DNA from: an uncultured Candidatus Saccharibacteria bacterium
GTDB taxonomy: Bacteria; Patescibacteriota; Saccharimonadia; Saccharimonadales; Saccharimonadaceae
NCBI GenBank assembly: GCA_964462335.1
Contig: CAYWYG010000001.1
Location: forward strand, 9,903 to 73,902
DNA: 64,000 nt
Reading direction: 5' to 3'
Below the pieces are notes generated by a model, which did no database searches, was not told the DNA's origin, and saw nothing but the letters and a program-made list of their open reading frames with translations. Made by a program: the position numbers and the translations under genes. Shown here piece by piece: positions 464 to 12,415 of the stretch. Position 1 is the first letter of the stretch; the number at the start of each line of letters is the position of its first letter.

Positions 464-1366
464 ATGAAGGGGAAACGCTGGGCAGTTACGCTGATCATTT
501 TTCTCGTTATGGCTGCGCTTATTGGTGCGCTGATCGTCTTCGTCCATGATCCCGTACTTATTCGTCCAAGTGGGCTCATCGCAGCACAACAGCGAGACCT
601 GTTGTATTTTGCGACAGGGGTAATGTTGGCTGTTGCACTACCGGTTTTTGTATTGACGGCGTATATCGCTCGAAAATACCGAGCTACCAATCGTCGTGCA
701 CGATATACACCCAACGAAGACGGTAATCGCTCCCTTGAACTCGTTTGGTGGGGCATTCCCATCGCGATCGTCGGACTGTTGTCGGTCGTTGCGTGGCGTA
801 CATCCCATAGCCTTGATCCATTTCGCCCGCTTGATGACACTGCGCCGTATCGTGTGCAGGTCATTGCGCTCGAATGGAAATGGTTATTTATCTACCCAGA
901 CTATAAAACAGCATCGGTCAATGAGTTGGCGATCCCAGTGGGACAACCTGTCGAATTCTCGATCGCATCAGATGCACCGATGAATTCATTTTGGATACCA
1001 GAACTTGGCGGACAAATCTATGCGATGAGTGGCATGAGCACTCAGCTTCACCTGCAAGCAAATAAGCCAGGCGTATTTCGTGGTGTATCATCAAACCTAA
1101 GTGGCGACGGGTTTTCTGACATGAAGTTTGATGTCAGAGCTATGCCTACGAGCGATCTTGCACAGTGGCAGTACGACGCTACCACCTCGCCGCTTCGCCT
1201 TGCGATTGATAATTATCCTGTTCTTGCCATGCCAGCAACTGTCTCATCACCTCTACGATATCGTCTTGATACGCCCGATCTCTATCAGATGGTTATCGAT
1301 AAATATTCACTCGACCATAGCCGCGTTGAGGATAATGTGCACATGAAGCACGAGGGGGCAATCTAA
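464..1366 (+). CDS. cyoA: cytochrome o (bo3) ubiquinol oxidase subunit II
   Basis: 300 aa with N-terminal TM helices and a cupredoxin-like domain. [29 protein letters not shown] matches the CyoA pattern. First gene of a cyoABCDE order. Confidence 0.9.
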
Positions 1367-1368
1367 CG

Positions 1369-3312
1369 ATGTTTGGACGTATGACGCTTGACGCATTCCC
1401 GCACAATCCGATCATGATCGGAGGAGCGCTTGGCATTATCGGCGGTGCGGTAGCAGTAGTCGCGATCATCACATATCTAAAACGTTGGCGATGGTTGTGG
1501 CGCACCTATCTCACAAGCCTTGATGCGAAAAAGATCGGGATCATGTATATCGTCGTTGCGGTTGTCATGTTGCTACGTGGTGCAGGTGATGCATTGATGC
1601 TGCGCGGGCAACAGGCTATGGCGGCAGGCGATAGCGGCTTCCTTGATCCGAACCATTTTCAGCAGATATTTACCGCGCATGGCACGATTATGATATTTTT
1701 TGTGGCAATGGGGTTGATGTTTGGTCTCATCAACCTCGTCCTACCGCTCATGTTGGGGGCGCGTGATGTGGCGTTTCCGTTTCTCAACTCTGTCAGTTTT
1801 TGGCTATTTTTTGCCGGTATGGCGCTCATGAATGTATCACTCGTCTACGGTGAGTTTGCCGCTACTGGGTGGCTATCGTATCCGCCTCTGTCGGAGCTAC
1901 AATATAGTCCAGGTGTCGGAGTCGATTACTGGCTATGGGCGATCCAGATCGCAGGTGTAGGATCGACCCTGTCAGCCGTCAATTTCATCACAACAATTTT
2001 GCGCAAACGCGCACCAGGCATGGATTTGATGAAGATGCCGATGTTTGCGTGGAGTGTCCTCGGCAGTATGATCCTTGTCATGTTCGCATTTCCGATTCTG
2101 ACAGCGACCCTCGGGATGCTAGGACTCGATCGTCTCATGGGTATGCATTTTTTCACCAGTGACCTTGGTGGCAATCCGATGATGTATATCAATTTGATAT
2201 GGGCATGGGGACATCCGGAAGTCTATATCGTCATCTTGCCAGCATTTGGGATGTTTTCTGAGATCGTCGCGACATTTGCTCGCAAGCGACTCTTTGGCTA
2301 CACCAGTATGGTCGTTGCACTTATGGCGATCTCGTTTTTCAGCTATATCGTCTGGGCGCATCACTTTTTCACGATGGGTGCGGGCGGCGATGTCAACGCG
2401 TTTTTCGGTATCGCGACCATGGTGATTGCAATTCCAACCGGCGTGAAGCTATTTAATTGGCTCTTTACAATGTATCGCGGACGTATTCATTTCACGAGTC
2501 CGATGTGGTGGTTTATGGGGTTTGTCGTGACTTTTACGATTGGCGGCATGACGGGGGTATTGCACGCGATACCAGCGATCGATTTCCAGCTTCACAACAG
2601 TTTGTTTCTCGTCGCGCACTTTCATAATATGCTGATAGGTGGCGTTGTATTTGGCTACTTTGCAGGTCTTACCTACTGGTTCCCGAAAATATTTGGCTTT
2701 CGACTGCACGAGGGTCTCGGCAAGGCTGCTGCGCTTGCGTGGATACTGGGTTTCGTCGTTGCGTTCACCCCACTTTATGCGCTAGGGCTGATGGGTGTCA
2801 CGCGACGGCTTGATCATTACGACCCGAATCCTGGTTGGCAAGCGCTATTCATCGTAGCGGCAATTGGTCTCGGCATTATTTTGATAGGCGTCGTCTTGCA
2901 GCTTGCACAGCTGGCATATAGCATATGGAAACGGAAAGAACTGCGTGCCGTGAGTGACCCATGGGAAGGTCGTACGCTAGAGTGGTCAGTGCCGTCGCCT
3001 GCGCCGTCATATAATTTCACGGTTATACCACACGTGACGATGCGAGACGAATGGTGGGAGCGCAAGGCGGCAAAATATCATGCCCCTCAAACCTATGAGG
3101 ATTTTTACGAACCGAAAAACACAGCAGCCGGTATAGGTATTGCTGCCAGTGGCTTTGTGATCTGTTTTGGGCTGATCTGGCATGTCTGGTGGCTTGCGTC
3201 TGTCATGGCGGCTATCTTGGTGGCGATGATTATCAGGCGAACTACCACTATCGATACTGAGCGGTTAGTGCATGGCCGCTCACTGCATCGCGAAAAAGGA
3301 GGTGCAGCATAA
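1369..3312 (+). CDS. cyoB: cytochrome o ubiquinol oxidase subunit I (heme-copper oxidase)
   Basis: 647 aa. Carries [24 protein letters not shown] and [11 protein letters not shown] heme/CuB ligand motifs. Confidence 0.95.
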
Positions 3313-3902
3313 TGTCACTGACCGCACCAGCACACGAAAATCAGCACACCACAACACTTGGATTTTGGATCTATCTCATGACAGATTGTCTCCTATTTGC
3401 TGCATTATTTGCGACCTATGCAGTCCTACACCATCGCACAGCAGGCGGGCCGACAAGTCATGATATCATCGAGTTGCCTTACGCACTGACAAGTACGATA
3501 CTACTGCTGACGAGTAGCCTCACGAGCGGTTTTGCCTTGCTTGCAGTACGCGGTGAGCATCATCGTCGCGCGATACAATGGCTCACGCTGACACTACTAC
3601 TGGGCGTAGGCTTCATGTGTTTTGAATTGGTTGAGTTTGGCACACTTATTAACGATGGGTACAGCTGGACGGTAAGTGCGTTTTTGTCAGCGTTTTTTAC
3701 GCTTGTCGGAACGCACGGCCTCCATATCACTATCGGACTTATATGGGGTAGTGTGATGCTGTGGCTCGTAACGAAGCGGTTTTATACGACACCGCATCTT
3801 ATCAAAAAAATGACATTGTTTACGTTGTTTTGGCACTTTCTTGATATCATCTGGATATTTATATTTACCTTTGTATATCTGACAGGGAGTATCTATTCAT
3901 GA
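3312..3902 (+). CDS. cyoC: cytochrome o ubiquinol oxidase subunit III
   Basis: 196 aa polytopic protein ending in FWHFLDIIWIFIFTFVYL. Its start overlaps the cyoB stop. Confidence 0.9.
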   Translation: MSLTAPAHENQHTTTLGFWIYLMTDCLLFAALFATYAVLHHRTAGGPTSHDIIELPYALTSTILLLTSSLTSGFALLAVRGEHHRRAIQWLTLTLLLGVGFMCFELVEFGTLINDGYSWTVSAFLSAFFTLVGTHGLHITIGLIWGSVMLWLVTKRFYTTPHLIKKMTLFTLFWHFLDIIWIFIFTFVYLTGSIYS

Positions 3903-4258
3903 GAGCAGTCAAACTAAAACCACACTACTCGTACGTTATAGGTTACGTGTTATCGCTTATTTTGACACTCAATGCCTACGTGGCGGCTACGCTCAATGTC
4001 GGTGCATTGACACCGGGACTTGTGACGATGTTGGCGCTGCTTGCAAGCGCACAGTTGATCGTCCACGTTATATATTTTCTGCATCTTGGGTACGAAAGTC
4101 GGCCCAAGTGGAACTCCGTTGCATTTATTGTCACGGTCATGGTGTTGCTTTTTATCGTGGTTGGTTCTATCTGGGTGATGAACAATCTTGACTACAATAT
4201 GATGTCCCCCAATGCTCAGCATCGTATGATCGACGATGAGGGCCTTTACCTTCAGTGA
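3899..4258 (+). CDS. cyoD: cytochrome o ubiquinol oxidase subunit IV
   Basis: 119 aa with 3 TM helices. Has 4-nt overlaps with cyoC and cyoE, in the canonical position. Confidence 0.75.
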   Translation: MRAVKLKPHYSYVIGYVLSLILTLNAYVAATLNVGALTPGLVTMLALLASAQLIVHVIYFLHLGYESRPKWNSVAFIVTVMVLLFIVVGSIWVMNNLDYNMMSPNAQHRMIDDEGLYLQ

Positions 4259-5115
4259 ACAGCGTGTTGTTTCGCCGGTATTATGAACTGACAAAGCCAG
4301 GCATGGTCTATGGCAATGTGCTGCCAGCGCTCACAGGATATTTCCTAGGGTACGCGCAATCGTTCTCAATAGCGCGCTTGGTCGGGTTTGTTATCGGGTT
4401 GAGCTGTGTCATGGGGTCAAGCTGCGTGGTGAACAATATTGTCGATCGAGAGCGAGATATGATCATGAAGCGAACGGCACGACGTGTCTTGCCTCGTCAC
4501 GCTATCCGTGTCGATCACGCAAGGGTATTCGCTGGGCTTCTCGCGAGCATAGGATTTATCATCCTGGGCGCAACTGCAGGTTGGCAAGCGACGTTTGTCG
4601 CGGGCACTGCCTGGCTACTCTATGCAGGGGTGTACACCTGGCTAAAGCCTAAGACGCCATACGCGACATTGGTCGGAGCCGTATCAGGCGCACTACCACC
4701 AGTCATCGGCTGGCTTGCAGCAGGAAATCACCTAGGCATCATCGCGCTGATGCTATTTTTCATCCTCTTTTTCTGGCAAATGATACATTTCTATGCGATT
4801 GCGCTGCGCTGCATCAATGATTATCGTCGAGCAGCCACACCTGTATATCCGATAGTATTTGGTGCGTCACGTACGATCTGGGCGATGCGAGCGTACGGGT
4901 GCATCTACACTTTGTTGGTATTCCTACTCACGGTGTGGCTCTGGGGAAATTCTTGGCCTACGTGGGTAATCGTGACCACGCACGTAGTGACACTTTGGTA
5001 TCTCTTGCAGCCCGCAACACACATCGCATCATGGGCACGTCGCGCATTCTTCAGCTCGCTGTTGGCGCTCTGTGCGTGGTCGATTACTACATCAGTCTTT
5101 GTGGTACTTGTATAG
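4255..5115 (+). CDS. cyoE: protoheme IX farnesyltransferase (heme O synthase)
   Basis: 286 aa. UbiA-type motif NNIVDRERDMIMKRTARR. GTG start overlaps the cyoD stop (GTGA). Confidence 0.9.
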   Translation: MNSVLFRRYYELTKPGMVYGNVLPALTGYFLGYAQSFSIARLVGFVIGLSCVMGSSCVVNNIVDRERDMIMKRTARRVLPRHAIRVDHARVFAGLLASIGFIILGATAGWQATFVAGTAWLLYAGVYTWLKPKTPYATLVGAVSGALPPVIGWLAAGNHLGIIALMLFFILFFWQMIHFYAIALRCINDYRRAATPVYPIVFGASRTIWAMRAYGCIYTLLVFLLTVWLWGNSWPTWVIVTTHVVTLWYLLQPATHIASWARRAFFSSLLALCAWSITTSVFVVLV

Positions 5116-5764: not shown

Positions 5765-5999
5765 TGCACACCTCCTTCGGCTTGCATCTCTATTGTAGCG
5801 CATAATGCAACATAAATGTGAAAGAATGTGTAGTAATAAAATCAACGTACGAACAGAGGTAATATCGTGAAATATTACAAATTTTATACATTTCACGGTT
5901 GACACTCAATTTATCATCTGTTATTAGGCATTTGCCCCTTATATGGTGATAGTGGGCAAGTCTTGCTATACTATCTCAGTGCTATGGCACGCACGCGAT

Positions 6000-6075
6000 A
6001 GGGGAGTAGCTCAGCTGGTAGAGCAACGGTCTCCAAAACCGTAGGCCGCAGGTTCGAATCCTGTCTCCCCTGCCA
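6000..6075 (+). tRNA. trnW: tRNA-Trp (anticodon CCA), CCA end encoded
   Basis: Cloverleaf read by eye: acceptor AGGGGAG/CTCCCCT, D stem GCTC/GAGC, anticodon stem ACGGT/ACCGT with loop CTCCAAA, T arm GCAGG-TTCGAAT-CCTGT. TGCTATACT at 5964-5972 is a likely promoter. Confidence 0.95.
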
Positions 6076-6175
6076 AACAGTAGATCGTCGATATTATCCC
6101 GTATTCAGACTTTGCTTCTATATCGAGGGCTGGGCTGCTACTTGTCCTGTAAAATTTGCCCGCAAATTAAAATGT

Positions 6176-6218
6176 GCGCGTGACTGTCGAGAGCCAAGTG
6201 CTCTCGACAGTCACGCGC
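6176..6218. terminator. perfect 19-bp hairpin between the tRNA-Trp and a convergent small ORF
   Basis: GCGCGTGACTGTCGAGAGC - CAAGT - GCTCTCGACAGTCACGCGC. There is no clear U-tract on either strand. Confidence 0.5.
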
Positions 6219-6228
6219 GAATCCTCTC

Positions 6229-6312
6229 TCATCGCCGCAGTTTCATGCTAATCATCACTCCTAGCGCAATGCCGACGGCGATCATCGCGATGTATGCCAG
6301 CGCGTAGCTCAT
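6229..6312 (-). CDS. possible 27-aa hydrophobic peptide
   Basis: MSYALAYIAMIAVGIALGVMISMKLRR, preceded by AGGAAGG. Taken from track ORF 6229..6453 and shortened to Met48. Confidence 0.25.
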   Translation of the reverse strand: MSYALAYIAMIAVGIALGVMISMKLRR

Positions 6313-6563
6313 CGTAGCCTTCCTTCTTAATGCGTTGTTGAGAGGAGTACAATTTAAATATATTATCATACTTTTATACGGAACGCAATACCCATATCCC
6401 AAAAGCTTCACCCACGCATTTGCAGATATCACATATATCACATACTGCAACACTCTCTGCTATACAGAGTTTTGTAACAACCGTATAAATAATGTGCACT
6501 TGGAAATTGAGAGGTTGAGAAACTAAGCATTATAGAGCAATTGCTAGGTGATATAATATGCCT

Positions 6564-7880
6564 ATGACACAGACTCGCCTATCACTTCGCCACACTATCA
6601 AAAAAGCATTGCCAAAGTCAGTCTTCAAACGCATCGAGCGACAAGGACACTTGGCAGAGAGCGTTGTCTATTCAGCAAAATACAAGTTTCCTGGTCGCGG
6701 CATGCGATTTATCGGTGTCACCGGCACCAATGGCAAGACGACCACGACAAACCTGATATTTACCATACTGCGCGCTGCCGGCTACAAGGTCGCGTTGTTT
6801 AGCTCGACGTCATACGGCTACATGGACGATATCCGCGAAGAAGCAACTCATATGACGACCGTACCGTCGCCTATTCTCCAGCAGCGACTTCGTGAATTTG
6901 CTGATCGCGGCGCTGAGTGGGTCGTCATCGAGATGTCGAGCCATGCGCTCGCACAAGCGCGCGGCTGGGGATTGCCCTTTGAAATCGGTGTCATGACCAA
7001 TGTCACACATGAGCACCTTGATTACCACGGAAGTATGGAAAAGTACCGCGAAGACAAGCGCAAACTTTTCAAATTGGTCGCGAAAAACCCGCACGGTTTC
7101 GGCGTCGTCTACGCCGAAGATCCATCGGCTGAATTATTTCTGAGGACCGTGCCCTCAGGTGTCAGTTACGGCGTGGCCGTGGGTGATATGCGCGCACACG
7201 ACATACAACTTGGTCGCGATGACGTACGTTGCACGGCGACCATAAGCAATGACACGTATCATTTGCGCGTGAATATGCCTGGTGAATTCAATGTACAAAA
7301 CGCCATGGCTGCGACGCTCGTCGCACGTCATCTTGGTATTGATGCGAAGACGATTGAAACAGCGATCTCATCACTCGAAGGCGTCTATTGCCGCATGATG
7401 CCGATACGTGAAGGTCAGCCGTGGCGGGCGCTTGTCGACTATGGTGGCACGCCTGATGCGTTTGAGAAACTCTTCGCCGCGTTGCGCCCGACGACACCAG
7501 GAAAGTTGGTGGTTGTGTTTGGTAGTCCGGCGGAACGCGACAGATTGAAACGACCCATCCAAGGCGAAATCGCCGCTCGTTGGTGCGACGAAGTGATTAT
7601 CACAGAGGAAGAAAACCGCCATGAAGACGGCAATCAAATCATGGAAGAAATTGCCGTTGGTGCCGAAAAAGCCGGCAAGGTTCGCGACAAAGACTTATTT
7701 TTGATCGCTAAGCGCGACGATGCCATCGACTTTGCGATGACACGCGTCAGCGGCTCTGACGACACCGTCGTCGCAACAGGCAAGGGCAATGAGAAGACAA
7801 TCGAACGTGGCGACGACAAGCTACCATGGAATGAACCTGAGGTCGTCCGCGCCGCCATCCGCAAGGTCTGGAAACGCTAG
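6564..7880 (+). CDS. Mur ligase family protein, MurE-like with a short N-terminus
   Basis: P-loop GVTGTNGKTTTT at about aa 53, DYGGTPDAFEKL and GSPAERDRLKRP as in MurE. EENR replaces the DNPR motif. The start is placed at the second ATG because TGATATAAT (6549-6557) abuts the first. Confidence 0.8.
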   Translation: MTQTRLSLRHTIKKALPKSVFKRIERQGHLAESVVYSAKYKFPGRGMRFIGVTGTNGKTTTTNLIFTILRAAGYKVALFSSTSYGYMDDIREEATHMTTVPSPILQQRLREFADRGAEWVVIEMSSHALAQARGWGLPFEIGVMTNVTHEHLDYHGSMEKYREDKRKLFKLVAKNPHGFGVVYAEDPSAELFLRTVPSGVSYGVAVGDMRAHDIQLGRDDVRCTATISNDTYHLRVNMPGEFNVQNAMAATLVARHLGIDAKTIETAISSLEGVYCRMMPIREGQPWRALVDYGGTPDAFEKLFAALRPTTPGKLVVVFGSPAERDRLKRPIQGEIAARWCDEVIITEEENRHEDGNQIMEEIAVGAEKAGKVRDKDLFLIAKRDDAIDFAMTRVSGSDDTVVATGKGNEKTIERGDDKLPWNEPEVVRAAIRKVWKR

Positions 7881-7892
7881 GTAACGACCCCC

Positions 7893-9158
7893 CTAGACTA
7901 TCTTTGCAGCTTCTTCGACGGCATGTGCGGCGATATCGAGACCTTGGCGGAGGGTGTCGTCATCAATCGTAAGCGCCGGCATAAATTTGACGACTTCGTC
8001 GTCGCGACCAGCACGCTCGATGATAAGACCGTCGGCAAAACACCGTTTGCCCACTGATGCCGCGAGTTCGGCATCTTCAAAGACAAGCCCTTGCAAGAAC
8101 CCACGACCACGTACAGACATATGTAAATCTGGATGGCGCTCTACAATACTCTCAAGCGAGGTGCGCAACATAGCCGCTTTGTGCGCAAGATCACGCTGCA
8201 GCGTATCATCGGCCCAGTATGTCTCTATAGCCGCGCGCGCCGTGACAAACGCGTGGTTGTTACCACGGAATGTGCCATTGTGCTGAGCTGGTTTCCAGAC
8301 ATCGAATGCATCGTGCAGAAGCACGAGCGACATTGGCGATCCATAGCCAGAGATGGACTTGGAAAGCGTCACAACATCTGGCCTAATGCCGCTTGGCTCA
8401 AAGCTGAAAAATGTCCCACTCCGTCCACAGCCAGCTTGGATATCGTCGAGGATCAGCAGCGATTCATGCTCCTTGGTGAGCGCGCGTAGCGCTTGTAGCC
8501 ACTCAGGACGAGCCTCATTGACACCACCTTCACCCTGGATACACTCGGCTATCGCACCGGCTGGCGCACCATGTTCGCTCACAAGCGATGCAAACTCGCT
8601 CTTAAGGCGCTTGACCGATTCTTCAACCGTCACTGACAGATCATCATACGTCAGGAAATGAACATGCTCTAGCTCAACGCCGGCAACATCTCGAAAATAC
8701 GGATTGCTTGTCGTAGCCAGCGCGCCGAGGCTGACACCGTGAAAGCCATTGTGAAATGAGACGATATCACTCCGACCGGTCGCCAGACGAGCCAGTTTGA
8801 GCGCAGCCTCGACGGCATTTGTCCCAGTCGGGCCGGTAAACTGCAGCTTGTACTCACTCATACCGCGCGGCTGGAGAATGCGCGCAACGAACGAATCGAT
8901 AAATGACTGCTTTGCGACAGTCGCCATGTCCAAACTATTGTTGATGCCGTCACGTTCGATATATGCAAGCAGCTCTGACTTGAGAGCCTGAGGATTGTGG
9001 CCATAATTATTGGCACCGGCACCACTAAAAAAGTCGATGTACTTACGGCCTTCAGTGTCAGTAATATGCGAGCCTTTGGCAGTATCGATGACAAATGGAA
9101 ATGATTTGTTATACGATGCGACGTTGGATTCGTCTTTGTGTATAGAGTGTTGTGTCAT
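7893..9158 (-). CDS. diaminobutyrate--2-oxoglutarate transaminase (EctB/Dat type, class III aminotransferase)
   Basis: 421 aa, colinear by memory with EctB: YIDFFSGAGANNYGHN, GPTGTNAVEAALKLAR, DDIQAGCGRSGTFFSFE, WKPAQHNGTFRG. Confidence 0.85.
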   Translation of the reverse strand: MTQHSIHKDESNVASYNKSFPFVIDTAKGSHITDTEGRKYIDFFSGAGANNYGHNPQALKSELLAYIERDGINNSLDMATVAKQSFIDSFVARILQPRGMSEYKLQFTGPTGTNAVEAALKLARLATGRSDIVSFHNGFHGVSLGALATTSNPYFRDVAGVELEHVHFLTYDDLSVTVEESVKRLKSEFASLVSEHGAPAGAIAECIQGEGGVNEARPEWLQALRALTKEHESLLILDDIQAGCGRSGTFFSFEPSGIRPDVVTLSKSISGYGSPMSLVLLHDAFDVWKPAQHNGTFRGNNHAFVTARAAIETYWADDTLQRDLAHKAAMLRTSLESIVERHPDLHMSVRGRGFLQGLVFEDAELAASVGKRCFADGLIIERAGRDDEVVKFMPALTIDDDTLRQGLDIAAHAVEEAAKIV

Positions 9159-9212
9159 GAGCTATAGTATACCATTCATCACTCGTCAGGCTTTAGTTTA
9201 TAATAGTGGGGT

Positions 9213-10664
9213 ATGAAAGCACCCATCATCATGAAATTTGGCGGCACCTCTGTCGGTGATGCCGAGCAGATCGAACGTGTTGCGGCAATTATCGCGCATC
9301 GTCCAGATCATCCTACCGTCATCGTTGCATCAGCCATGGCTGGCGTCACTGACATGCTTGTCAGCCTCGCTCAATCAGTCAAGGACCGTGCTGTCGGACA
9401 TAGCCAGTTGCTGAGCGATATCACCGAGCGTCACATGCGGGCGGTCGTCAGTCTTCATCTTGACCCGGGCGAACGTACCGCGCTTCGCCACACCATGATC
9501 ACGCGACTTCACGAGCTCGAAGAGGCGACGGCACGTCTCAGCACGCAAAAATCCTCGTTTACCAAAGCCCACTATGATCAGATTGTGTCGTTTGGCGAAC
9601 GACTGAGTGTCGAATTGGTAGCTGCAGCGCTACGTCATGCTGGTATCGCCGCCCAAGCCGTATTGGCGACTGAGTGCATCGTGACCAATGACCGACATGG
9701 CGATGCCGAGCCACTGCTTGATGAGTCAGCCGCACAAGTAACACGTGTGCTCACGCCGCTTCTTGTTGATGGCGTCATACCTGTCGTAACGGGCTTTATC
9801 GGTGCGACTGCATCAGGAGACGTCACGACGCTCGGCCGTGGTGCGTCAGATTACACCGCGACCATCCTCGGCTATTGTCTCGATGCCTATGAAGTCTGGA
9901 TATGGACTGATGTAACCGGCGTCCTGACCGCCGATCCCAAGCTCATTCCTGACGCACAGACAATCGATCACTTGTCATACGAAGAGGCGGCAGAGCTGTC
10001 GCACTTTGGAGCAAAAGTTCTCCACCCGCTGACCATTGTGCCGGTTTCACTCAAAAACATCCCTATTCGTATCAAAAATACCTTCGAACATACCAACGAC
10101 GGAACACGCGTCTCGTCAGATACGCCTCGGCAGCCATCAGGCGTCAAAGCCGTGACGGCAAAGCACAATTTGTCGCTTGTCACGGTACGAGGCAAGGGTA
10201 CACCTGCGATCGCGCACGTCGCAGCGGCGACGTTTGGCGCACTAGCTCAGGAGAAGATCGATATCTACCTCATCTCTCATGCATCCTCCGAACGAAATAT
10301 GGCATTTGTCGTTGCCTCATCAGATAGCGAGCGCGCCGCAAATGCCGTGAGAATTGCTCTCAGCAAAGAGGAGATCGCGCATGACATCGATGAAGTACAT
10401 GTCCGCGACAATATATCGATGGTCGCTGTTGTTGGTGATGGCATGCAGCAATCTACTGGTATTACCGGCCAGCTTTTTTCGGCACTTGGCGCACATCGTG
10501 TCAATGTCGTCGCAGTTGCCCAGGGCCAGTTTGAGAGCAATATGTCATGTGTCGTCGACAGCCACGACGCAAACAGTGCCGTCAAAAGCCTCCATCATGC
10601 GTTTAATCTAAAAGGAGAAAAATCATCATGGCAGAAGCCATTCAAACGTCTGCTCAAGAGATGA
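9213..10664 (+). CDS. ask: aspartate kinase
   Basis: Begins MKFGGTSVGD and has an amino-acid kinase fold followed by C-terminal ACT-like repeats. TATAAT sits 8 nt before the ATG. Confidence 0.9.
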   Translation: MKAPIIMKFGGTSVGDAEQIERVAAIIAHRPDHPTVIVASAMAGVTDMLVSLAQSVKDRAVGHSQLLSDITERHMRAVVSLHLDPGERTALRHTMITRLHELEEATARLSTQKSSFTKAHYDQIVSFGERLSVELVAAALRHAGIAAQAVLATECIVTNDRHGDAEPLLDESAAQVTRVLTPLLVDGVIPVVTGFIGATASGDVTTLGRGASDYTATILGYCLDAYEVWIWTDVTGVLTADPKLIPDAQTIDHLSYEEAAELSHFGAKVLHPLTIVPVSLKNIPIRIKNTFEHTNDGTRVSSDTPRQPSGVKAVTAKHNLSLVTVRGKGTPAIAHVAAATFGALAQEKIDIYLISHASSERNMAFVVASSDSERAANAVRIALSKEEIAHDIDEVHVRDNISMVAVVGDGMQQSTGITGQLFSALGAHRVNVVAVAQGQFESNMSCVVDSHDANSAVKSLHHAFNLKGEKSSWQKPFKRLLKR

Positions 10665-11752
10665 CGCCCTACCGCGTCGGTATACTTGGGGCAACTGGTA
10701 TGGTCGGGCAGCGTTTTGTCACGCTACTCTCTGAGCACCCGTGGTTTGAGATAGCCGTCGTGGCGGCATCACCGTCATCAGCGGGTAAATTATACACGGA
10801 CGCTGTCCAAGACCGCTGGCATATGAGCTCACCTATACCTGATGGTGTGGCGAGCCTCACCGTTCGTTCTGTCGTCGATGACCTTGCCTCGATTGCTGCC
10901 GAGGTCGATATCGTCTTTTGTGCGCTAGATATGGACAAAGACACGATCCGGCAAGTAGAAACCGATTATGCCGCCGCTGGCGTTGCCGTCATATCCAACA
11001 ACTCAGCCCACCGCTGGACCGAGGACGTCCCGATGCTCATGCCAGAAGTAAACCTCGCACATACGGCACTCATCGACGTACAACGCCGTCAGCGCGGTTG
11101 GTCGACAGGTTTTATCGCCGTCAAACCAAACTGCTCTATCCAGTCGTATGTCTCGGTATTGACCGCACTCGTACCATTTGTGCCGCGTGATGTGAGCGTG
11201 ACGAGCTTGCAGGCTATTTCTGGAGCAGGCAAGACGTTTGTCACATGGCCCGAGATGGTCGACAATGTCATTCCCTACATCAGTGGCGAAGAGGAAAAAT
11301 CCGAACGTGAACCACTCAAGATATGGGGTCGGGTAGACGGTGATAGACTCACGCTTGCCGAGTCCCCGCGCATCAACGCAACGTGTATCCGCGTCCCAGT
11401 GAGTGACGGCCACATGGCATCAGTGCGTGTACGTTTCGATCACCCCGCCACGCGAGAGCAGATTATTGACGCGGTCAATAATTTTGCCAATCCGCTTCGT
11501 GATATGCAGCTTCCGTCAGCACCACAGCAGCTGATACGCTATCTCGAAGAAGATGATCGTCCGCAGACTAGGGCTGACCGTGATTATGAACATGGTATGG
11601 GTATCACGATGGGTCGTTTGCGTCAGATTGATAAGCATGAATGGCAATTTATATCACTCTCGCACAATACAATTCGCGGTGCGGCTGGCGGTGCTGTCTT
11701 GATGGCGGAGGTGCTCGCACGACAAGGATATATTACGCACCGTGAGAGATAA
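10661..11752 (+). CDS. asd: aspartate-semialdehyde dehydrogenase
   Basis: GILGATGMVGQRF NAD-binding site, active-site KPNCSIQS and SHNTIRGAAGG. The start was moved to the ATG that forms an ATGA overlap with the ask stop. Confidence 0.9.
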   Translation: MTPYRVGILGATGMVGQRFVTLLSEHPWFEIAVVAASPSSAGKLYTDAVQDRWHMSSPIPDGVASLTVRSVVDDLASIAAEVDIVFCALDMDKDTIRQVETDYAAAGVAVISNNSAHRWTEDVPMLMPEVNLAHTALIDVQRRQRGWSTGFIAVKPNCSIQSYVSVLTALVPFVPRDVSVTSLQAISGAGKTFVTWPEMVDNVIPYISGEEEKSEREPLKIWGRVDGDRLTLAESPRINATCIRVPVSDGHMASVRVRFDHPATREQIIDAVNNFANPLRDMQLPSAPQQLIRYLEEDDRPQTRADRDYEHGMGITMGRLRQIDKHEWQFISLSHNTIRGAAGGAVLMAEVLARQGYITHRER

Positions 11753-11791
11753 GTTTTATCAGCAAAACAGATTTGCTATACTGGCTAGAGT

Positions 11792-12415
11792 ATGAAATCA
11801 CTGAGTTTAGCGAGGCCGTTGGTCATAATGCTTGTAGGGATCCCCGGATCGGGTAAGAGTTTTTTTGCTCGCCAGTTTAGCGACCTTTTTGATGCGCCAA
11901 TTGTCAGCCTTGATGAGATTCGACATGTTCTATTTAGCGACCCTCAGTTTAGCCGCGACGAGGAAACATTGATCGCAATGGTCATGCGTATACAGATGAA
12001 ACAATTATTTCGGACGCAGAAAACATTTTTGATCGACGGTGGACTGAATACTCGTATGGCGCGAATGGCCATTGAAAAGCTGGCAAAACAGTATGAGTAT
12101 GGTACGGTCACCGTGTGGGTGCAAACTGACGAAGATACGTCTGCATATCGCTCACTGAAGCGCCATGCAAAGCGCCCAGGTGATGCACTCAATACGTCTA
12201 TGAGCGAGAGCGTGTTTATCAATCAGGCAAAACGTATCAACCCCCCCGAAGAAAAGGAAGTGCACGTCGTTATTAGTGGTAAGCACACGTTCGCAACACA
12301 AGCCAAGATGGTTCTGCGTCGTATCATTGTACCTCGCGACCAGAGTACCTCGCCTGGCTCGCTACGAGGTGATATCGCCCAGCAACGTACACCGTCACCC
12401 CGCACGAACTCCTGA
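11792..12415 (+). CDS. P-loop kinase-like ATPase (AAA_33 / zeta-toxin-like fold)
   Basis: Walker A VGIPGSGKSFF. 207 aa. TGCTATACT sits 9 nt upstream of the ATG. Confidence 0.6.
   Translation: MKSLSLARPLVIMLVGIPGSGKSFFARQFSDLFDAPIVSLDEIRHVLFSDPQFSRDEETLIAMVMRIQMKQLFRTQKTFLIDGGLNTRMARMAIEKLAKQYEYGTVTVWVQTDEDTSAYRSLKRHAKRPGDALNTSMSESVFINQAKRINPPEEKEVHVVISGKHTFATQAKMVLRRIIVPRDQSTSPGSLRGDIAQQRTPSPRTNS

What the first reader, a model, noticed from the sequence alone, without database searches (positions are those of the whole stretch)
6558..11752. Aspartate-to-2,4-diaminobutyrate gene set (ask-asd plus an EctB-type transaminase) next to a MurE-like ligase with an altered DAP-recognition motif
ask (9213) and asd (10661) are coupled. 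The divergently placed transaminase (7893-9158) is colinear with EctB/Dat. No ectA/ectC or lysine/threonine genes follow, so the product would be L-2,4-diaminobutyrate (DABA).

Convergent with the transaminase is a stand-alone MurE-like ligase.
- Its N-terminal domain is short: the P-loop sits at about aa 53.
- The position aligned to the MurE DNPR meso-DAP motif reads EENR (IITEEENRHED).

My inference is a dedicated module making DABA and ligating it into a peptidoglycan stem peptide or another glycopolymer. This would be unusual for an organism that otherwise looks auxotrophic.
Basis: partly seen in the sequence, partly recalled or inferred. Interest (0 to 1): 0.65.

Follow-up and report, generated by a model that had tools for sequence, protein, structure and literature searches.

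The report
Saccharibacteria cell-wall ligase with diaminobutyrate pathway
A reduced, host-dependent Saccharibacterium keeps a three-enzyme route from aspartate to the short diamino acid 2,4-diaminobutyrate right beside its only recognisable MurE-type cell-wall ligase, which suggests, without proving, that this lineage builds an unusual diaminobutyrate-containing peptidoglycan.

Summary
The four genes are real. They are a MurE-type ligase (6558-7880 +), an EctB-type diaminobutyrate (DABA) transaminase (7893-9158 -), an aspartate kinase (9213-10664 +) and an aspartate-semialdehyde dehydrogenase (10628-11752 +). No ectA/ectC, hom/thrC or dap genes were found among the ORFs annotated across the 64 kb window.

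The organism is a Candidatus Saccharibacteria (Patescibacteria) bacterium.

- The short N-terminus occurs in all Patescibacteria MurE-type ligases examined.
- Most Saccharibacteria read EDDR where ordinary bacteria read DNPR. EENR is a minor variant of that.

The DABA-to-cell-wall idea gains comparative support:
- An EctB gene sits beside the ligase in 7 distinct loci, in three gene arrangements and from two EctB lineages.
- None of 80 non-Patescibacteria EctB loci has such a ligase within 6 kb.
- In related Saccharibacteria the same slot holds an arginine-dihydrolase-like gene.
- Two ligase residues (G297, P324) separate EctB-linked from dihydrolase-linked ligases without exception.

Verdict: a new variant of a known kind. 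It is probably a DABA-type peptidoglycan module, but this is unproven biochemically.

The parts
6558..7880 (+). MurE-type Mur ligase, 440 aa, of the short Patescibacteria form. It has the central and C-terminal domains only; about 45 helical residues replace domain 1.
   Evidence: Pfam Mur_ligase_M and Mur_ligase_C only. TIGR01085 murE 353.5 bits against a 257.3 cut-off; the DAP-type and Lys-type equivalog models score below their cut-offs. The AlphaFold2 model has pLDDT 87.9, and its best PDB matches are MurE of M. tuberculosis and S. aureus at TM 0.79-0.82. Residues aligned to the E. coli catalytic positions are conserved.
6714..6740 (+). ATP-binding P-loop GVTGTNGKT (aa 53-61)
   Evidence: The same early position is seen in all Patescibacteria homologues; ordinary bacteria have it at about aa 100-120.
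7446..7448 (+). G297, in DYGGTPDA. It aligns with the His of the E. coli DYAHTPDA motif. This is the first of two positions that separate EctB-linked ligases from dihydrolase-linked ones.
   Evidence: Gly in 16/16 ligases scored as EctB-linked (6 inspected loci plus 10 assigned by shared contig length). His or Ser in 12/12 dihydrolase-linked ligases. Across 120 homologues it co-varies with position 324.
7527..7529 (+). P324, in FGSPAERD, three residues before R327. R327 aligns with the E. coli Arg that, from memory of the literature, contacts DAP. This is the second discriminating position.
   Evidence: Pro in 16/16 EctB-linked ligases; Ala in 11/12 and Leu in 1/12 dihydrolase-linked ligases. 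Only the pairs G/P, S/A and H/A occur, apart from rare C/P and N/P.
7608..7619 (+). EENR (aa 351-354), at the position of the MurE DNPR meso-DAP motif
   Evidence: Alignments. Family-wide motif survey.
7893..9158 (-). EctB-type L-2,4-diaminobutyrate:2-oxoglutarate transaminase, 421 aa
   Evidence: NF006733 578.5 bits (cut-off 438) and TIGR02407 553.3 bits (cut-off 552.2). PDB DABA transaminases 9s1q and 6rl5 score 438 and 385 bits; GABA transaminase scores 163 bits. The TLSKS stretch matches the corresponding stretch of 9s1q.
9159..9212 (.). 54-bp divergent intergenic region between ectB and ask, presumably a shared control region
   Evidence: Sequence. No Rfam match was found anywhere in 5800-12000 except the tRNA.
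9213..10664 (+). Aspartate kinase, 483 aa, with two ACT domains
   Evidence: AA_kinase plus ACT_9 domains. TIGR00657 413 bits against a 208.7 cut-off.
10628..11752 (+). Aspartate-semialdehyde dehydrogenase of the archaeal/eukaryotic type. Its start overlaps the end of ask.
   Evidence: NF006416 460.4 bits (cut-off 232) and TIGR00978 348.3 bits (cut-off 301.2). RBS and ATG at 10628, alternative ATG at 10661.

Best explanation
This is a four-gene cell-wall module of one Saccharibacteria lineage.

**Proposed mechanism**
1. Aspartate kinase and aspartate-semialdehyde dehydrogenase convert aspartate to aspartate semialdehyde.
2. The EctB-type transaminase converts the semialdehyde to L-2,4-diaminobutyrate (DABA).
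3. The adjacent ligase is the lineage's own MurE orthologue, in the short Patescibacteria form. It is proposed to add DABA as the third residue of the peptidoglycan stem peptide.
4. The free side-chain amine would then be available for cross-linking or for FemX/FemAB-type branching.

**What is shown and what is inferred**
- Shown: the identity of the four enzymes, their conserved linkage, and a ligase sequence signature that tracks the linkage.
- Inferred: that DABA is the ligase's substrate, and that the product is peptidoglycan.
For: **Enzyme identities**
- All four identities are established by family scores and solved-structure relatives.

**Conserved linkage**
- The ligase-ectB-ask-asd block recurs in Saccharibacteria contigs where ligase identity falls to 62% and below and EctB identity falls to 53-71%. 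These are L001, L088, L089 and L090.
- The block sits in different wider contexts. In the window and L001 it lies beside a cytochrome-oxidase operon. In L088-L090 it lies in a FemAB/TsaD/GroEL neighbourhood.
- In L004, ectB lies one gene away from the ligase, inside a FemAB-rich cluster.
- In L092, an EctB of a different lineage (53% identical) lies 27 nt upstream of the ligase on the same strand.
- At least 10 further ligase/EctB pairs appear to share a contig, judged by matching contig length.

**Control**
- None of 80 EctB loci from other bacteria has a Mur ligase within 6 kb.

**Slot replacement**
- In 12 other Saccharibacteria loci, the gene convergent with the ligase is a 288-aa enzyme. 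Its closest solved relatives are the ornithine-forming arginine dihydrolases Alr4995 and Sll1336.
- The flanking genes of L006 and L089 match: FemAB, TsaD, PGI and FtsX/ABC.

**Ligase signature**
- Exactly two ligase columns separate the two groups without overlap. They are G297 versus H/S, and P324 versus A (one L).
- The two columns co-vary across 120 homologues.
- The G/P state was joined in a single clade in only 2 of 100 neighbour-joining bootstraps. The main EctB-linked clade had 83% support. This is consistent with the G/P state arising twice.

**Pocket chemistry**
- The DNPR position is more acidic here (EENR or EDDR). The S. aureus MurE study attributes selection of a cationic side chain to an acidic pocket (PMC3829189).

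**No competing consumer nearby**
- No ectA, ectC, decarboxylase or dap gene was found among the annotated ORFs of the 64 kb window. tblastn found no hom/thrC in the window or in any EctB-linked locus examined (L001, L004, L088-L090, L092).
Against: - There is no biochemical or muropeptide evidence. None was found in the searchable literature for any Saccharibacterium.
- Only 64 kb of the genome is visible. Other users of DABA or aspartate semialdehyde, or a second murE, could lie elsewhere.
- Elsewhere in Patescibacteria, ask-asd belongs to a threonine-type cluster. L095 has ask-hom-asd-x-thrC, and L094 has a hom fragment followed by ask-asd. The pair therefore has another possible role.
- L004 and L092 have ectB but no ask/asd within 10 kb.
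- The location of G297 and P324 in the amino-acid pocket rests on remembered homology to MurC and MurD. No coordinates were measured.
- The two diagnostic residues could be clade markers. The evidence for a second, independent origin rests on one inspected locus (L092) and a distance tree.
- The ligase lacks the UDP-binding domain 1, so its acceptor substrate is itself an inference.
Confidence: 0.55

Rival explanations
1. Coincidental neighbours. The ligase is the housekeeping MurE and adds scavenged L-Lys or L-Orn. The ask-asd-ectB module makes DABA for something else, such as ectoine, N-acetyl-DABA, 1,3-diaminopropane or another polyamine, or a secondary metabolite.
For: - EctB serves such pathways in other bacteria. 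In L096 an EctB lies next to NRPS condensation and carrier domains.
- Many close EctB homologues come from bacteria whose EctB is usually ectoine-related.
- Only 64 kb of the genome is visible.
- The ligase motif (EENR/EDDR) does not distinguish EctB-linked ligases from the others.
Against: - Adjacency persists through three rearrangements and with two EctB lineages.
- None of 80 control EctB loci has the adjacency.
- No ectA, ectC or decarboxylase was found among the annotated ORFs of the window or the called genes of any linked locus.
- The ligase carries a two-residue signature that tracks EctB linkage.
Confidence: 0.2
2. The ligase is not a UDP-MurNAc-dipeptide ligase. Lacking domain 1, it attaches DABA to another acceptor, such as a lipid-linked precursor or another glycopolymer. 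Alternatively it builds a DABA-containing polyamide, in the manner of MurT, CapB or cyanophycin synthetase.
For: - The N-terminal UDP-binding domain is absent.
- No DAP-type or Lys-type equivalog model reaches its cut-off.
- Other Mur-family enzymes without domain 1 act on non-UDP substrates (general knowledge).
Against: - The same short form is the only MurE-type ligase seen in every Patescibacteria locus examined, and sources annotate it as MurE.
- It passes the murE subfamily cut-off. MurT scores about 35 bits against a cut-off of 800, and cyanophycin synthetase about 100 against 877.
- Its best structural matches are MurE.
- In S. aureus MurE the product is bound predominantly by the central domain (figure legend in PMC3829189).
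- FemAB/FemX-like genes cluster with it.
Confidence: 0.12
3. ask-asd serve homoserine, threonine or lysine/DAP synthesis, as in other Patescibacteria. EctB is then an accessory or reverse-acting enzyme, and the ligase uses DAP or Lys.
For: - Closely related asd genes (about 66-70% identity) sit in ask-hom-asd-x-thrC (L095) and hom(fragment)-ask-asd (L094) clusters.
- A preprint reports that lysC and asd are enriched in a Saccharimonadia genus and reads them as general aspartate metabolism (10.64898/2026.09.16.751625).
Against: - tblastn found no hom or thrC in the window or in any of the EctB-linked loci examined. No dap family appeared among the annotated ORFs.
- ask starts 54 bp from ectB across a divergent region.
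- The ligase lacks the Asn of DNPR. [quoted passage not shown]
Confidence: 0.1

Closest known systems
MurE (UDP-MurNAc-L-Ala-D-Glu:diamino-acid ligase), especially the L-Lys enzymes of S. aureus (4C12/4C13) and T. maritima (4BUB, DDPR motif)
   Same: - Same central and C-terminal domains.
- The P-loop is present, and residues aligned to the E. coli catalytic positions (carbamylated-Lys position, His/Glu metal ligands as recalled from the literature) are conserved.
- The R327, E351 and E412 equivalents of the residues lining the amino-acid site are present.
- It passes the TIGR01085 cut-off and matches at TM 0.79-0.82.
- The pocket is acidic, as in the Lys-adding enzyme (PMC3829189).
   Different: - Domain 1 is missing.
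- DNPR/DNPA/DDPR is replaced by EENR.
- The conserved His of DYAHTPD is Gly, and the Gly before the DAP-contacting Arg is Pro.
- The gene is linked to DABA synthesis rather than sitting in a dcw cluster.
2,4-diaminobutyrate-containing peptidoglycan of Actinobacteria such as Microbacteriaceae (Agromyces, Clavibacter, Leucobacter). This comparison rests on general knowledge and was not tested here.
   Same: - A diamino acid shorter than Lys occurs in the stem peptide.
- These bacteria carry a Dat/EctB-type transaminase. An Agromyces EctB is 55% identical to the window protein.
   Different: - The phylum is different.
- No conserved murE-ectB-ask-asd block is known to me in those bacteria.
- Their DAB occurs in B-type cross-links.
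- Here the chemistry is only predicted.
Ectoine clusters ectABC(-ask), which carry a dedicated aspartokinase
   Same: EctB is paired with a dedicated aspartate kinase that feeds aspartate semialdehyde.
   Different: - No ectA or ectC was found among the annotated ORFs of the window or the called genes of any linked locus.
- asd is included in the block.
- The partner enzyme is a Mur ligase.
Mur-family ligases without domain 1: MurT (lipid II amidation), CapB/PgsB, the cyanophycin synthetase M domain, and FolC
   Same: No N-terminal UDP-binding domain.
   Different: Sequence and fold are clearly of the MurE type, and these families score far below their cut-offs.
Arginine dihydrolases ArgZ (Sll1336) and AgrE (Alr4995). 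These are relevant to the gene that occupies the EctB slot in other Saccharibacteria.
   Same: The 288-aa neighbour of the ligase in 12 loci aligns over its full length with these ornithine-forming enzymes (E = 2e-23).
   Different: - It scores below every NCBIfam cut-off (DdahMtb 138 bits against 300; arginine dihydrolase 105 against 450).
- Its function is untested, and it is absent from this window.

Membership tests
MurE (TIGR01085 subfamily) | Profile score above the curated subfamily cut-off | tested here: met
   353.5 bits against a 257.3 cut-off.
MurE, DAP-adding or Lys-adding equivalogs | Score above an equivalog cut-off (NF001126 and related models for DAP; NF010628 for L-Lys) | tested here: not met
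   NF001126 scores 322 against 373. NF001124 scores 307 against 476. NF010628 scores 191 against 536.
MurE | Three-domain architecture with an N-terminal UDP-binding domain 1 | tested here: not met
   - No PF01225 hit.
- The P-loop starts at aa 53, and the ORF cannot extend upstream.
- The model shows only two helices before the central domain.
- The same is true of all Patescibacteria homologues examined.
MurE | Catalytic residues of Mur ligases: P-loop, Mg2+ ligands, carbamylated Lys, C-domain Arg and Glu | tested here: met
   Alignment to E. coli MurE shows these residues at the aligned positions: GTNGKT, E125, H129, T147/N148, H153/H157, K167, D294, R327, K331/R332 and E412. All are invariant in the family alignment. 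The functional roles assigned to the E. coli residues are recalled from the literature, not tested here.
MurE (meso-DAP type) | DNPR motif that binds the distal carboxylate of DAP | tested here: not met
   The motif reads EENR. Asn is replaced by Glu and Pro by Asn, while Arg is retained.
MurE | Fold similarity to solved MurE structures | tested here: met
   Matches are 2wtz, 4c13 and 8g6p at TM 0.79-0.82 and probability 1.00. MurC, MurF and MurD rank lower.
MurE | It is the genome's only position-3 ligase and acts on UDP-MurNAc-L-Ala-D-Glu | not testable with these tools
   - Only 64 kb of the genome is held, and whole genomes could not be scanned.
- There is no enzymology.
- Indirect evidence: no long-form MurE appeared among about 30 Patescibacteria loci.
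EctB / DABA:2-oxoglutarate transaminase | Score above the curated cut-offs, and closest solved relatives are DABA transaminases | tested here: met
   - NF006733 scores 578.5 against 438.
- TIGR02407 scores 553.3 against 552.2, which is marginal.
- 9s1q scores 438 bits and 6rl5 scores 385 bits, against 163 bits for GABA transaminase.
Ectoine biosynthesis cluster (ectABC) | ectA (DABA acetyltransferase) and ectC (ectoine synthase) present with ectB | tested here: not met
   Neither family was seen among the ORFs annotated in the window (mainly those of 150 aa or more) or among the called genes of 7 linked loci. Short unannotated ORFs in the window were not scanned. The rest of the genome is not visible.
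Aspartate kinase / aspartate-semialdehyde dehydrogenase | Scores above the curated cut-offs | tested here: met
   TIGR00657 scores 413 against 208.7. NF006416 scores 460.4 against 232. TIGR00978 scores 348.3 against 301.2.
MurT / CapB / cyanophycin synthetase | Profile score near the family cut-off | tested here: not met
   MurT models score 33-35 bits against a cut-off of 800. Cyanophycin synthetase scores 97-101 bits against 850-877.
DABA-type peptidoglycan chemotype | DABA detected at stem-peptide position 3 | not testable with these tools
   This needs muropeptide analysis. No published data on Saccharibacteria peptidoglycan composition were found.

The most novel reading that the evidence does not exclude
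Saccharibacteria place the gene that supplies their position-3 diamino acid next to murE, and they have switched cell-wall chemotype.
- The ancestral state would be ornithine, made from arginine by a dihydrolase-like enzyme.
- At least one lineage, and possibly two independently, replaced that gene with an EctB-based aspartate-to-DABA route.
- Each time, the MurE pocket changed in the same way (His/Ser to Gly, and Ala to Pro).

This would define the first sequence signature for a DABA-specific MurE. It would also show an otherwise auxotrophic epibiont keeping de novo amino-acid synthesis solely for its wall.
Probability: 0.3. Interest if true: 0.75.

Novelty: new variant of a known kind. Interest (0 to 1): 0.6.

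Why it matters
- No peptidoglycan chemistry for any Patescibacterium turned up in the literature searched here. These organisms are usually described as taking their building blocks from a host.
- A retained three-step pathway tied to MurE would show which wall component they refuse to outsource.
- It would predict a wall chemotype that differs between Saccharibacteria lineages. That bears on self-protection from lytic enzymes, host range and immune recognition of peptidoglycan fragments.
- It offers a two-residue marker (G297/P324) for MurE substrate choice. The marker can be tested with recombinant protein.
- It shows that MurE functions, or is at least universally retained, without domain 1 across a whole phylum-level radiation.

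Tried and rejected
**Searches that did not answer the question**
It returned no relative closer than 53% identity, so it gave dihydrolase-type and outgroup loci but none of the EctB clade.
- A metagenome scan with the second EctB lineage (A2) was meant to find more L092-like loci. It returned only EctB loci without a ligase, apparently from other bacteria. It was useful as a control but did not test how general the L092 arrangement is.
- Looking up the 1214-aa helicase to annotate the far end of the window found nothing. Pfam was used instead.
- An Rfam scan of 5800-12000 found only tRNA-Trp, with no riboswitch. Promoter and terminator scans gave nothing interpretable.
- Literature searches found no link between Saccharibacteria and diaminobutyrate, muropeptides or an ornithine wall. 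They also found no statement on the role of MurE His359.

**Ideas rejected**
- EENR as the DABA determinant. EctB-linked ligases also carry EDDR, EEDR and EDNR.
- The short N-terminus as a sign of a special second ligase. It is found across Patescibacteria.
- A GABA or ornithine transaminase identity for the transaminase.

**Not possible with these tools**
- Measuring pocket distances, because model coordinates are not exposed.
- Taking an inventory of Mur ligases in a whole genome.

Full report
**1. What is in the sequence**

The window is a stretch of a Candidatus Saccharibacteria (Patescibacteria/CPR) genome. Close homologues of its proteins come from Saccharibacteria and Saccharimonadales metagenome-assembled genomes.

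- **Ligase (6558-7880, +).** It has only the central and C-terminal Mur-ligase domains. It passes the murE subfamily model at 353.5 bits against 257.3. It passes no DAP-type or Lys-type equivalog model. Its P-loop starts at aa 53. The residues aligned to DNPR of E. coli and mycobacterial MurE, and to DDPR of T. maritima MurE, read EENR.
- **Transaminase (7893-9158, -).** It belongs to the EctB/DABA-transaminase family. It scores 578.5 bits on NF006733 and 553.3 on TIGR02407, the latter just over the 552.2 cut-off. Solved DABA transaminases score 438 and 385 bits, against 163 bits for GABA transaminase.
- **ask (9213-10664) and asd (10628-11752).** Both are unambiguous. They overlap.
- **Spacing.** ectB and ask diverge across 54 bp. 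The ligase and ectB converge with a 12-bp gap.
- **Rest of the window.** It encodes a cytochrome-oxidase operon, ribosomal and replication genes, ATP synthase, and nucleotide-metabolism genes. No ectA, ectC, decarboxylase or dap family appeared among the ORFs that were annotated, which were mainly those of 150 aa or more. tblastn found no hom or thrC in the window.

**2. Two stressed features are lineage-wide**

All 120 best homologues of the ligase are 411-466 aa long. In 80 loci from a species-level genome collection, every Patescibacteria ligase has the P-loop early once over-extended ORF calls are set aside. This covers Saccharibacteria, Moranbacteria, Uhrbacteria, Kuenenbacteria, Peribacteria and Minisyncoccota, with the P-loop at about aa 33-60. 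Firmicutes, Proteobacteria and other ordinary bacteria have it at about aa 100-120.

At the DNPR position the pattern is as follows:

| Group | Sequence at the motif |
|---|---|
| Ordinary bacteria | TSDNPR |
| Other Patescibacteria | TNEDPY or TEEDPxS |
| Most Saccharibacteria | TEEDDR |
| The window's closest relatives | TEEENR or TEEEDR |

An AlphaFold2 model (pLDDT 87.9) matches solved MurE structures best, at TM 0.79-0.82. It shows two helices where domain 1 would be. Residues aligned to the E. coli catalytic positions are conserved.

The gene is therefore the Saccharibacteria orthologue of MurE in its short Patescibacteria form. It is not an extra stand-alone ligase. EENR is a small variation on a phylum-level theme.

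**3. Evidence linking the ligase to DABA**

*Conserved adjacency.* EctB lies beside the ligase in seven distinct loci.
- The ligase-ectB-ask-asd block recurs in L001 (ligase 86% identical) and in L088, L089 and L090, whose EctB proteins are 68%, 59% and 53% identical to the window's.
- The wider contexts differ. In the window and L001 the block lies next to cox genes. In L088-L090 it lies among FemAB/FemX-like genes, TsaD, GroES/EL and PGI.
- In L004 (ligase 62% identical), ectB is one gene away from the ligase, and FemAB genes lie on both sides.
- In L092, an EctB-family gene of a separate lineage (53% identical) lies 27 nt upstream of the ligase on the same strand. It groups with ordinary bacterial EctBs, one of which lies next to an NRPS.

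*Control.* None of 80 EctB loci from other bacteria has a Mur ligase within 6 kb.

*Slot replacement.*
- In 12 more distant Saccharibacteria loci, the gene immediately downstream of the ligase and convergent with it is a 288-aa enzyme of the DDAH/amidinotransferase fold.
- Its closest solved relatives are the ornithine-forming arginine dihydrolases Alr4995 and Sll1336 (E = 2e-23, full length). It scores below all NCBIfam cut-offs.
- The flanking genes match those of the EctB-type loci. One syntenic slot thus holds either a candidate ornithine-forming enzyme or the DABA route.

*Ligase signature.*
- Across the whole alignment, exactly two ligase columns separate ligases scored as EctB-linked (16) from dihydrolase-linked ones (12) without overlap. 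Six of the 16 come from inspected loci and ten from contig-length matches.
- The first is G297 against His/Ser, in the conserved DYAHTPD motif.
- The second is P324 against Ala (one Leu), three residues before R327. R327 aligns with the E. coli Arg that, as I recall the literature, contacts DAP.
- The two columns co-vary across 120 homologues. G/P occurs in 47, S/A in 53 and H/A in 2. There are no mixed G/A or S/P pairs.
- The prediction that a G/P ligase of unknown context (P0039) would have an EctB neighbour was then borne out.
- In neighbour-joining bootstraps, the main EctB-linked clade has 83% support. All G/P ligases form one clade in only 2% of replicates. Together with the two EctB lineages, this suggests two independent recruitments with the same substitutions. 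That conclusion rests on one inspected locus of the second group and a simple distance tree.

**4. Most likely mechanism**

Aspartate is converted by Ask to aspartyl phosphate. Asd converts that to aspartate semialdehyde. EctB converts the semialdehyde to L-DABA. The enzyme identities behind these three steps are shown.

The MurE orthologue then ligates DABA to UDP-MurNAc-L-Ala-D-Glu. This step is inferred.

The motif here is more acidic (E-E/D-D/N-R). This fits the S. aureus MurE study, where an acidic pocket, including the first Asp of the motif and Glu460, selects a cationic side chain. [quoted passage not shown]

By homology with MurC (His348) and MurD (Thr321 region), the DYAH(T)P loop lines the pocket for the incoming amino acid. 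This is recalled from the literature and was not measured here. FemAB/FemX-like neighbours are consistent with a free side-chain amine that is branched.

I put about 0.55 on DABA being the ligase's substrate in peptidoglycan.

**5. Rivals**

- **Coincidental linkage (0.2).** DABA would go to ectoine, polyamine or another product. This cannot be excluded without the whole genome. It is disfavoured by the repeated, rearranged adjacency and by the clean control.
- **A non-MurE acceptor, because domain 1 is missing (0.12).** This is disfavoured because the short form is the only MurE type seen across Patescibacteria, and because the sequence and fold are MurE-like.
- **ask-asd serving threonine or lysine synthesis (0.1).** There is a real precedent. 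L095 carries ask-hom-asd-x-thrC, and L094 carries a hom fragment followed by ask-asd. A 2026 preprint reads the enrichment of lysC/asd in a Saccharimonadia genus as general aspartate metabolism. However, tblastn found no hom or thrC in the window or in any of the EctB-linked loci examined.

**6. Comparison with known systems and novelty**

The closest enzymes are the L-Lys MurEs of S. aureus and T. maritima. The closest chemistry is the DAB-containing peptidoglycan of some Actinobacteria, which I cite from general knowledge. The closest gene logic is the ectABC-ask cluster.

The differences are:
- loss of domain 1;
- the EENR/EDDR motif;
- the G297/P324 signature;
- a murE-ectB-ask-asd block in an organism that otherwise shows no amino-acid biosynthesis in 64 kb.

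No paper in the searchable library links Saccharibacteria with diaminobutyrate or reports their muropeptides.

I rate this a new variant of a known kind, with interest 0.6. It makes a specific, testable prediction about the walls of an uncultivated radiation. It also offers a candidate specificity signature, but it is not a new kind of system.

**7. Limits**

- I could not scan a whole genome for a second murE or for other consumers of DABA.
- I could not measure distances in the model.
- The trees are neighbour-joining only.
- The naive association between G/P and an EctB neighbour is 7 of 7 against 0 of about 20 Saccharibacteria loci. The naive Fisher p is about 6e-7, computed on a 7/0 versus 0/22 table. 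This ignores shared ancestry and should be read as at most two independent events.

Noticed in passing
L006 11304-12170 (-); also L008, L010-L012, L014-L016 and L018-L021, immediately downstream of the ligase: In 12 Saccharibacteria loci, the gene convergent with the MurE-type ligase is a 288-aa DDAH-fold enzyme. Its best solved relatives are the ornithine-forming arginine dihydrolases Alr4995/AgrE and Sll1336/ArgZ. This may be a dedicated ornithine supply for the wall. The gene is absent from this window.
   Followed up: partly
window 6558-6713 (ligase aa 1-52); L008-L034, L036, L039, L048, L049, L071: All Patescibacteria MurE-type ligases examined lack the N-terminal UDP-binding domain 1. 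About 45 helical residues take its place. How they bind the UDP-MurNAc substrate is unexplained.
   Followed up: partly
L004 8931-10004 (+): A 357-aa, highly divergent Mur-ligase paralogue sits directly upstream of the ligase and overlaps it by 4 nt. It is 23% identical to the ligase. It keeps a P-loop (GVYGKTTT) but has lost most of the catalytic motifs.
   Followed up: partly
P0165 (Aestuariimicrobium ganziense EctB, 61% identical to the window EctB): The EctB of an actinobacterial isolate nests inside the Saccharibacteria EctB clade in the distance tree. This suggests gene transfer between Saccharibacteria and Actinobacteria, which are their usual hosts. The direction is unknown.
   Followed up: no
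window 464-5115 (+): A haem-copper oxidase operon followed by haem O synthase lies upstream of the module. The COX2, COX1, COX3 and COX4 assignments come from synteny with L001. The haem O synthase scores 216.8 bits on TIGR01473 against a 210.3 cut-off. This points to an aerobic respiratory chain in a Saccharibacterium.
   Followed up: no
window 6176-6218: A perfect 19-bp stem (13 G-C pairs) with a 5-nt loop lies in the 480-bp non-coding stretch between tRNA-Trp (6000-6075) and the ligase. It lies next to a short minus-strand ORF and may be a bidirectional terminator.
   Followed up: no
L095 8042-13012; L094 7535-11089: Elsewhere in Patescibacteria, closely related asd genes sit in threonine-type clusters. 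L095 has ask (300 aa, no ACT domain)-hom-asd-x-thrC. L094 has a hom fragment followed by ask-asd, and the L094 genes look fragmented. The ask-asd pair may have been re-used for the wall module.
   Followed up: partly
L093 10001-11305 (P0047) and P0080, P0108: A few ligases carry the intermediate pairs C/P or N/P at the two diagnostic positions. L093 has neither an EctB nor a dihydrolase gene within 10 kb, only FemAB genes.
   Followed up: no
L096 207-3627: The closest metagenomic relative of the L092 EctB (72% identical) lies directly downstream of an NRPS carrier and condensation protein. In that organism DABA appears to feed a non-ribosomal peptide.
   Followed up: partly
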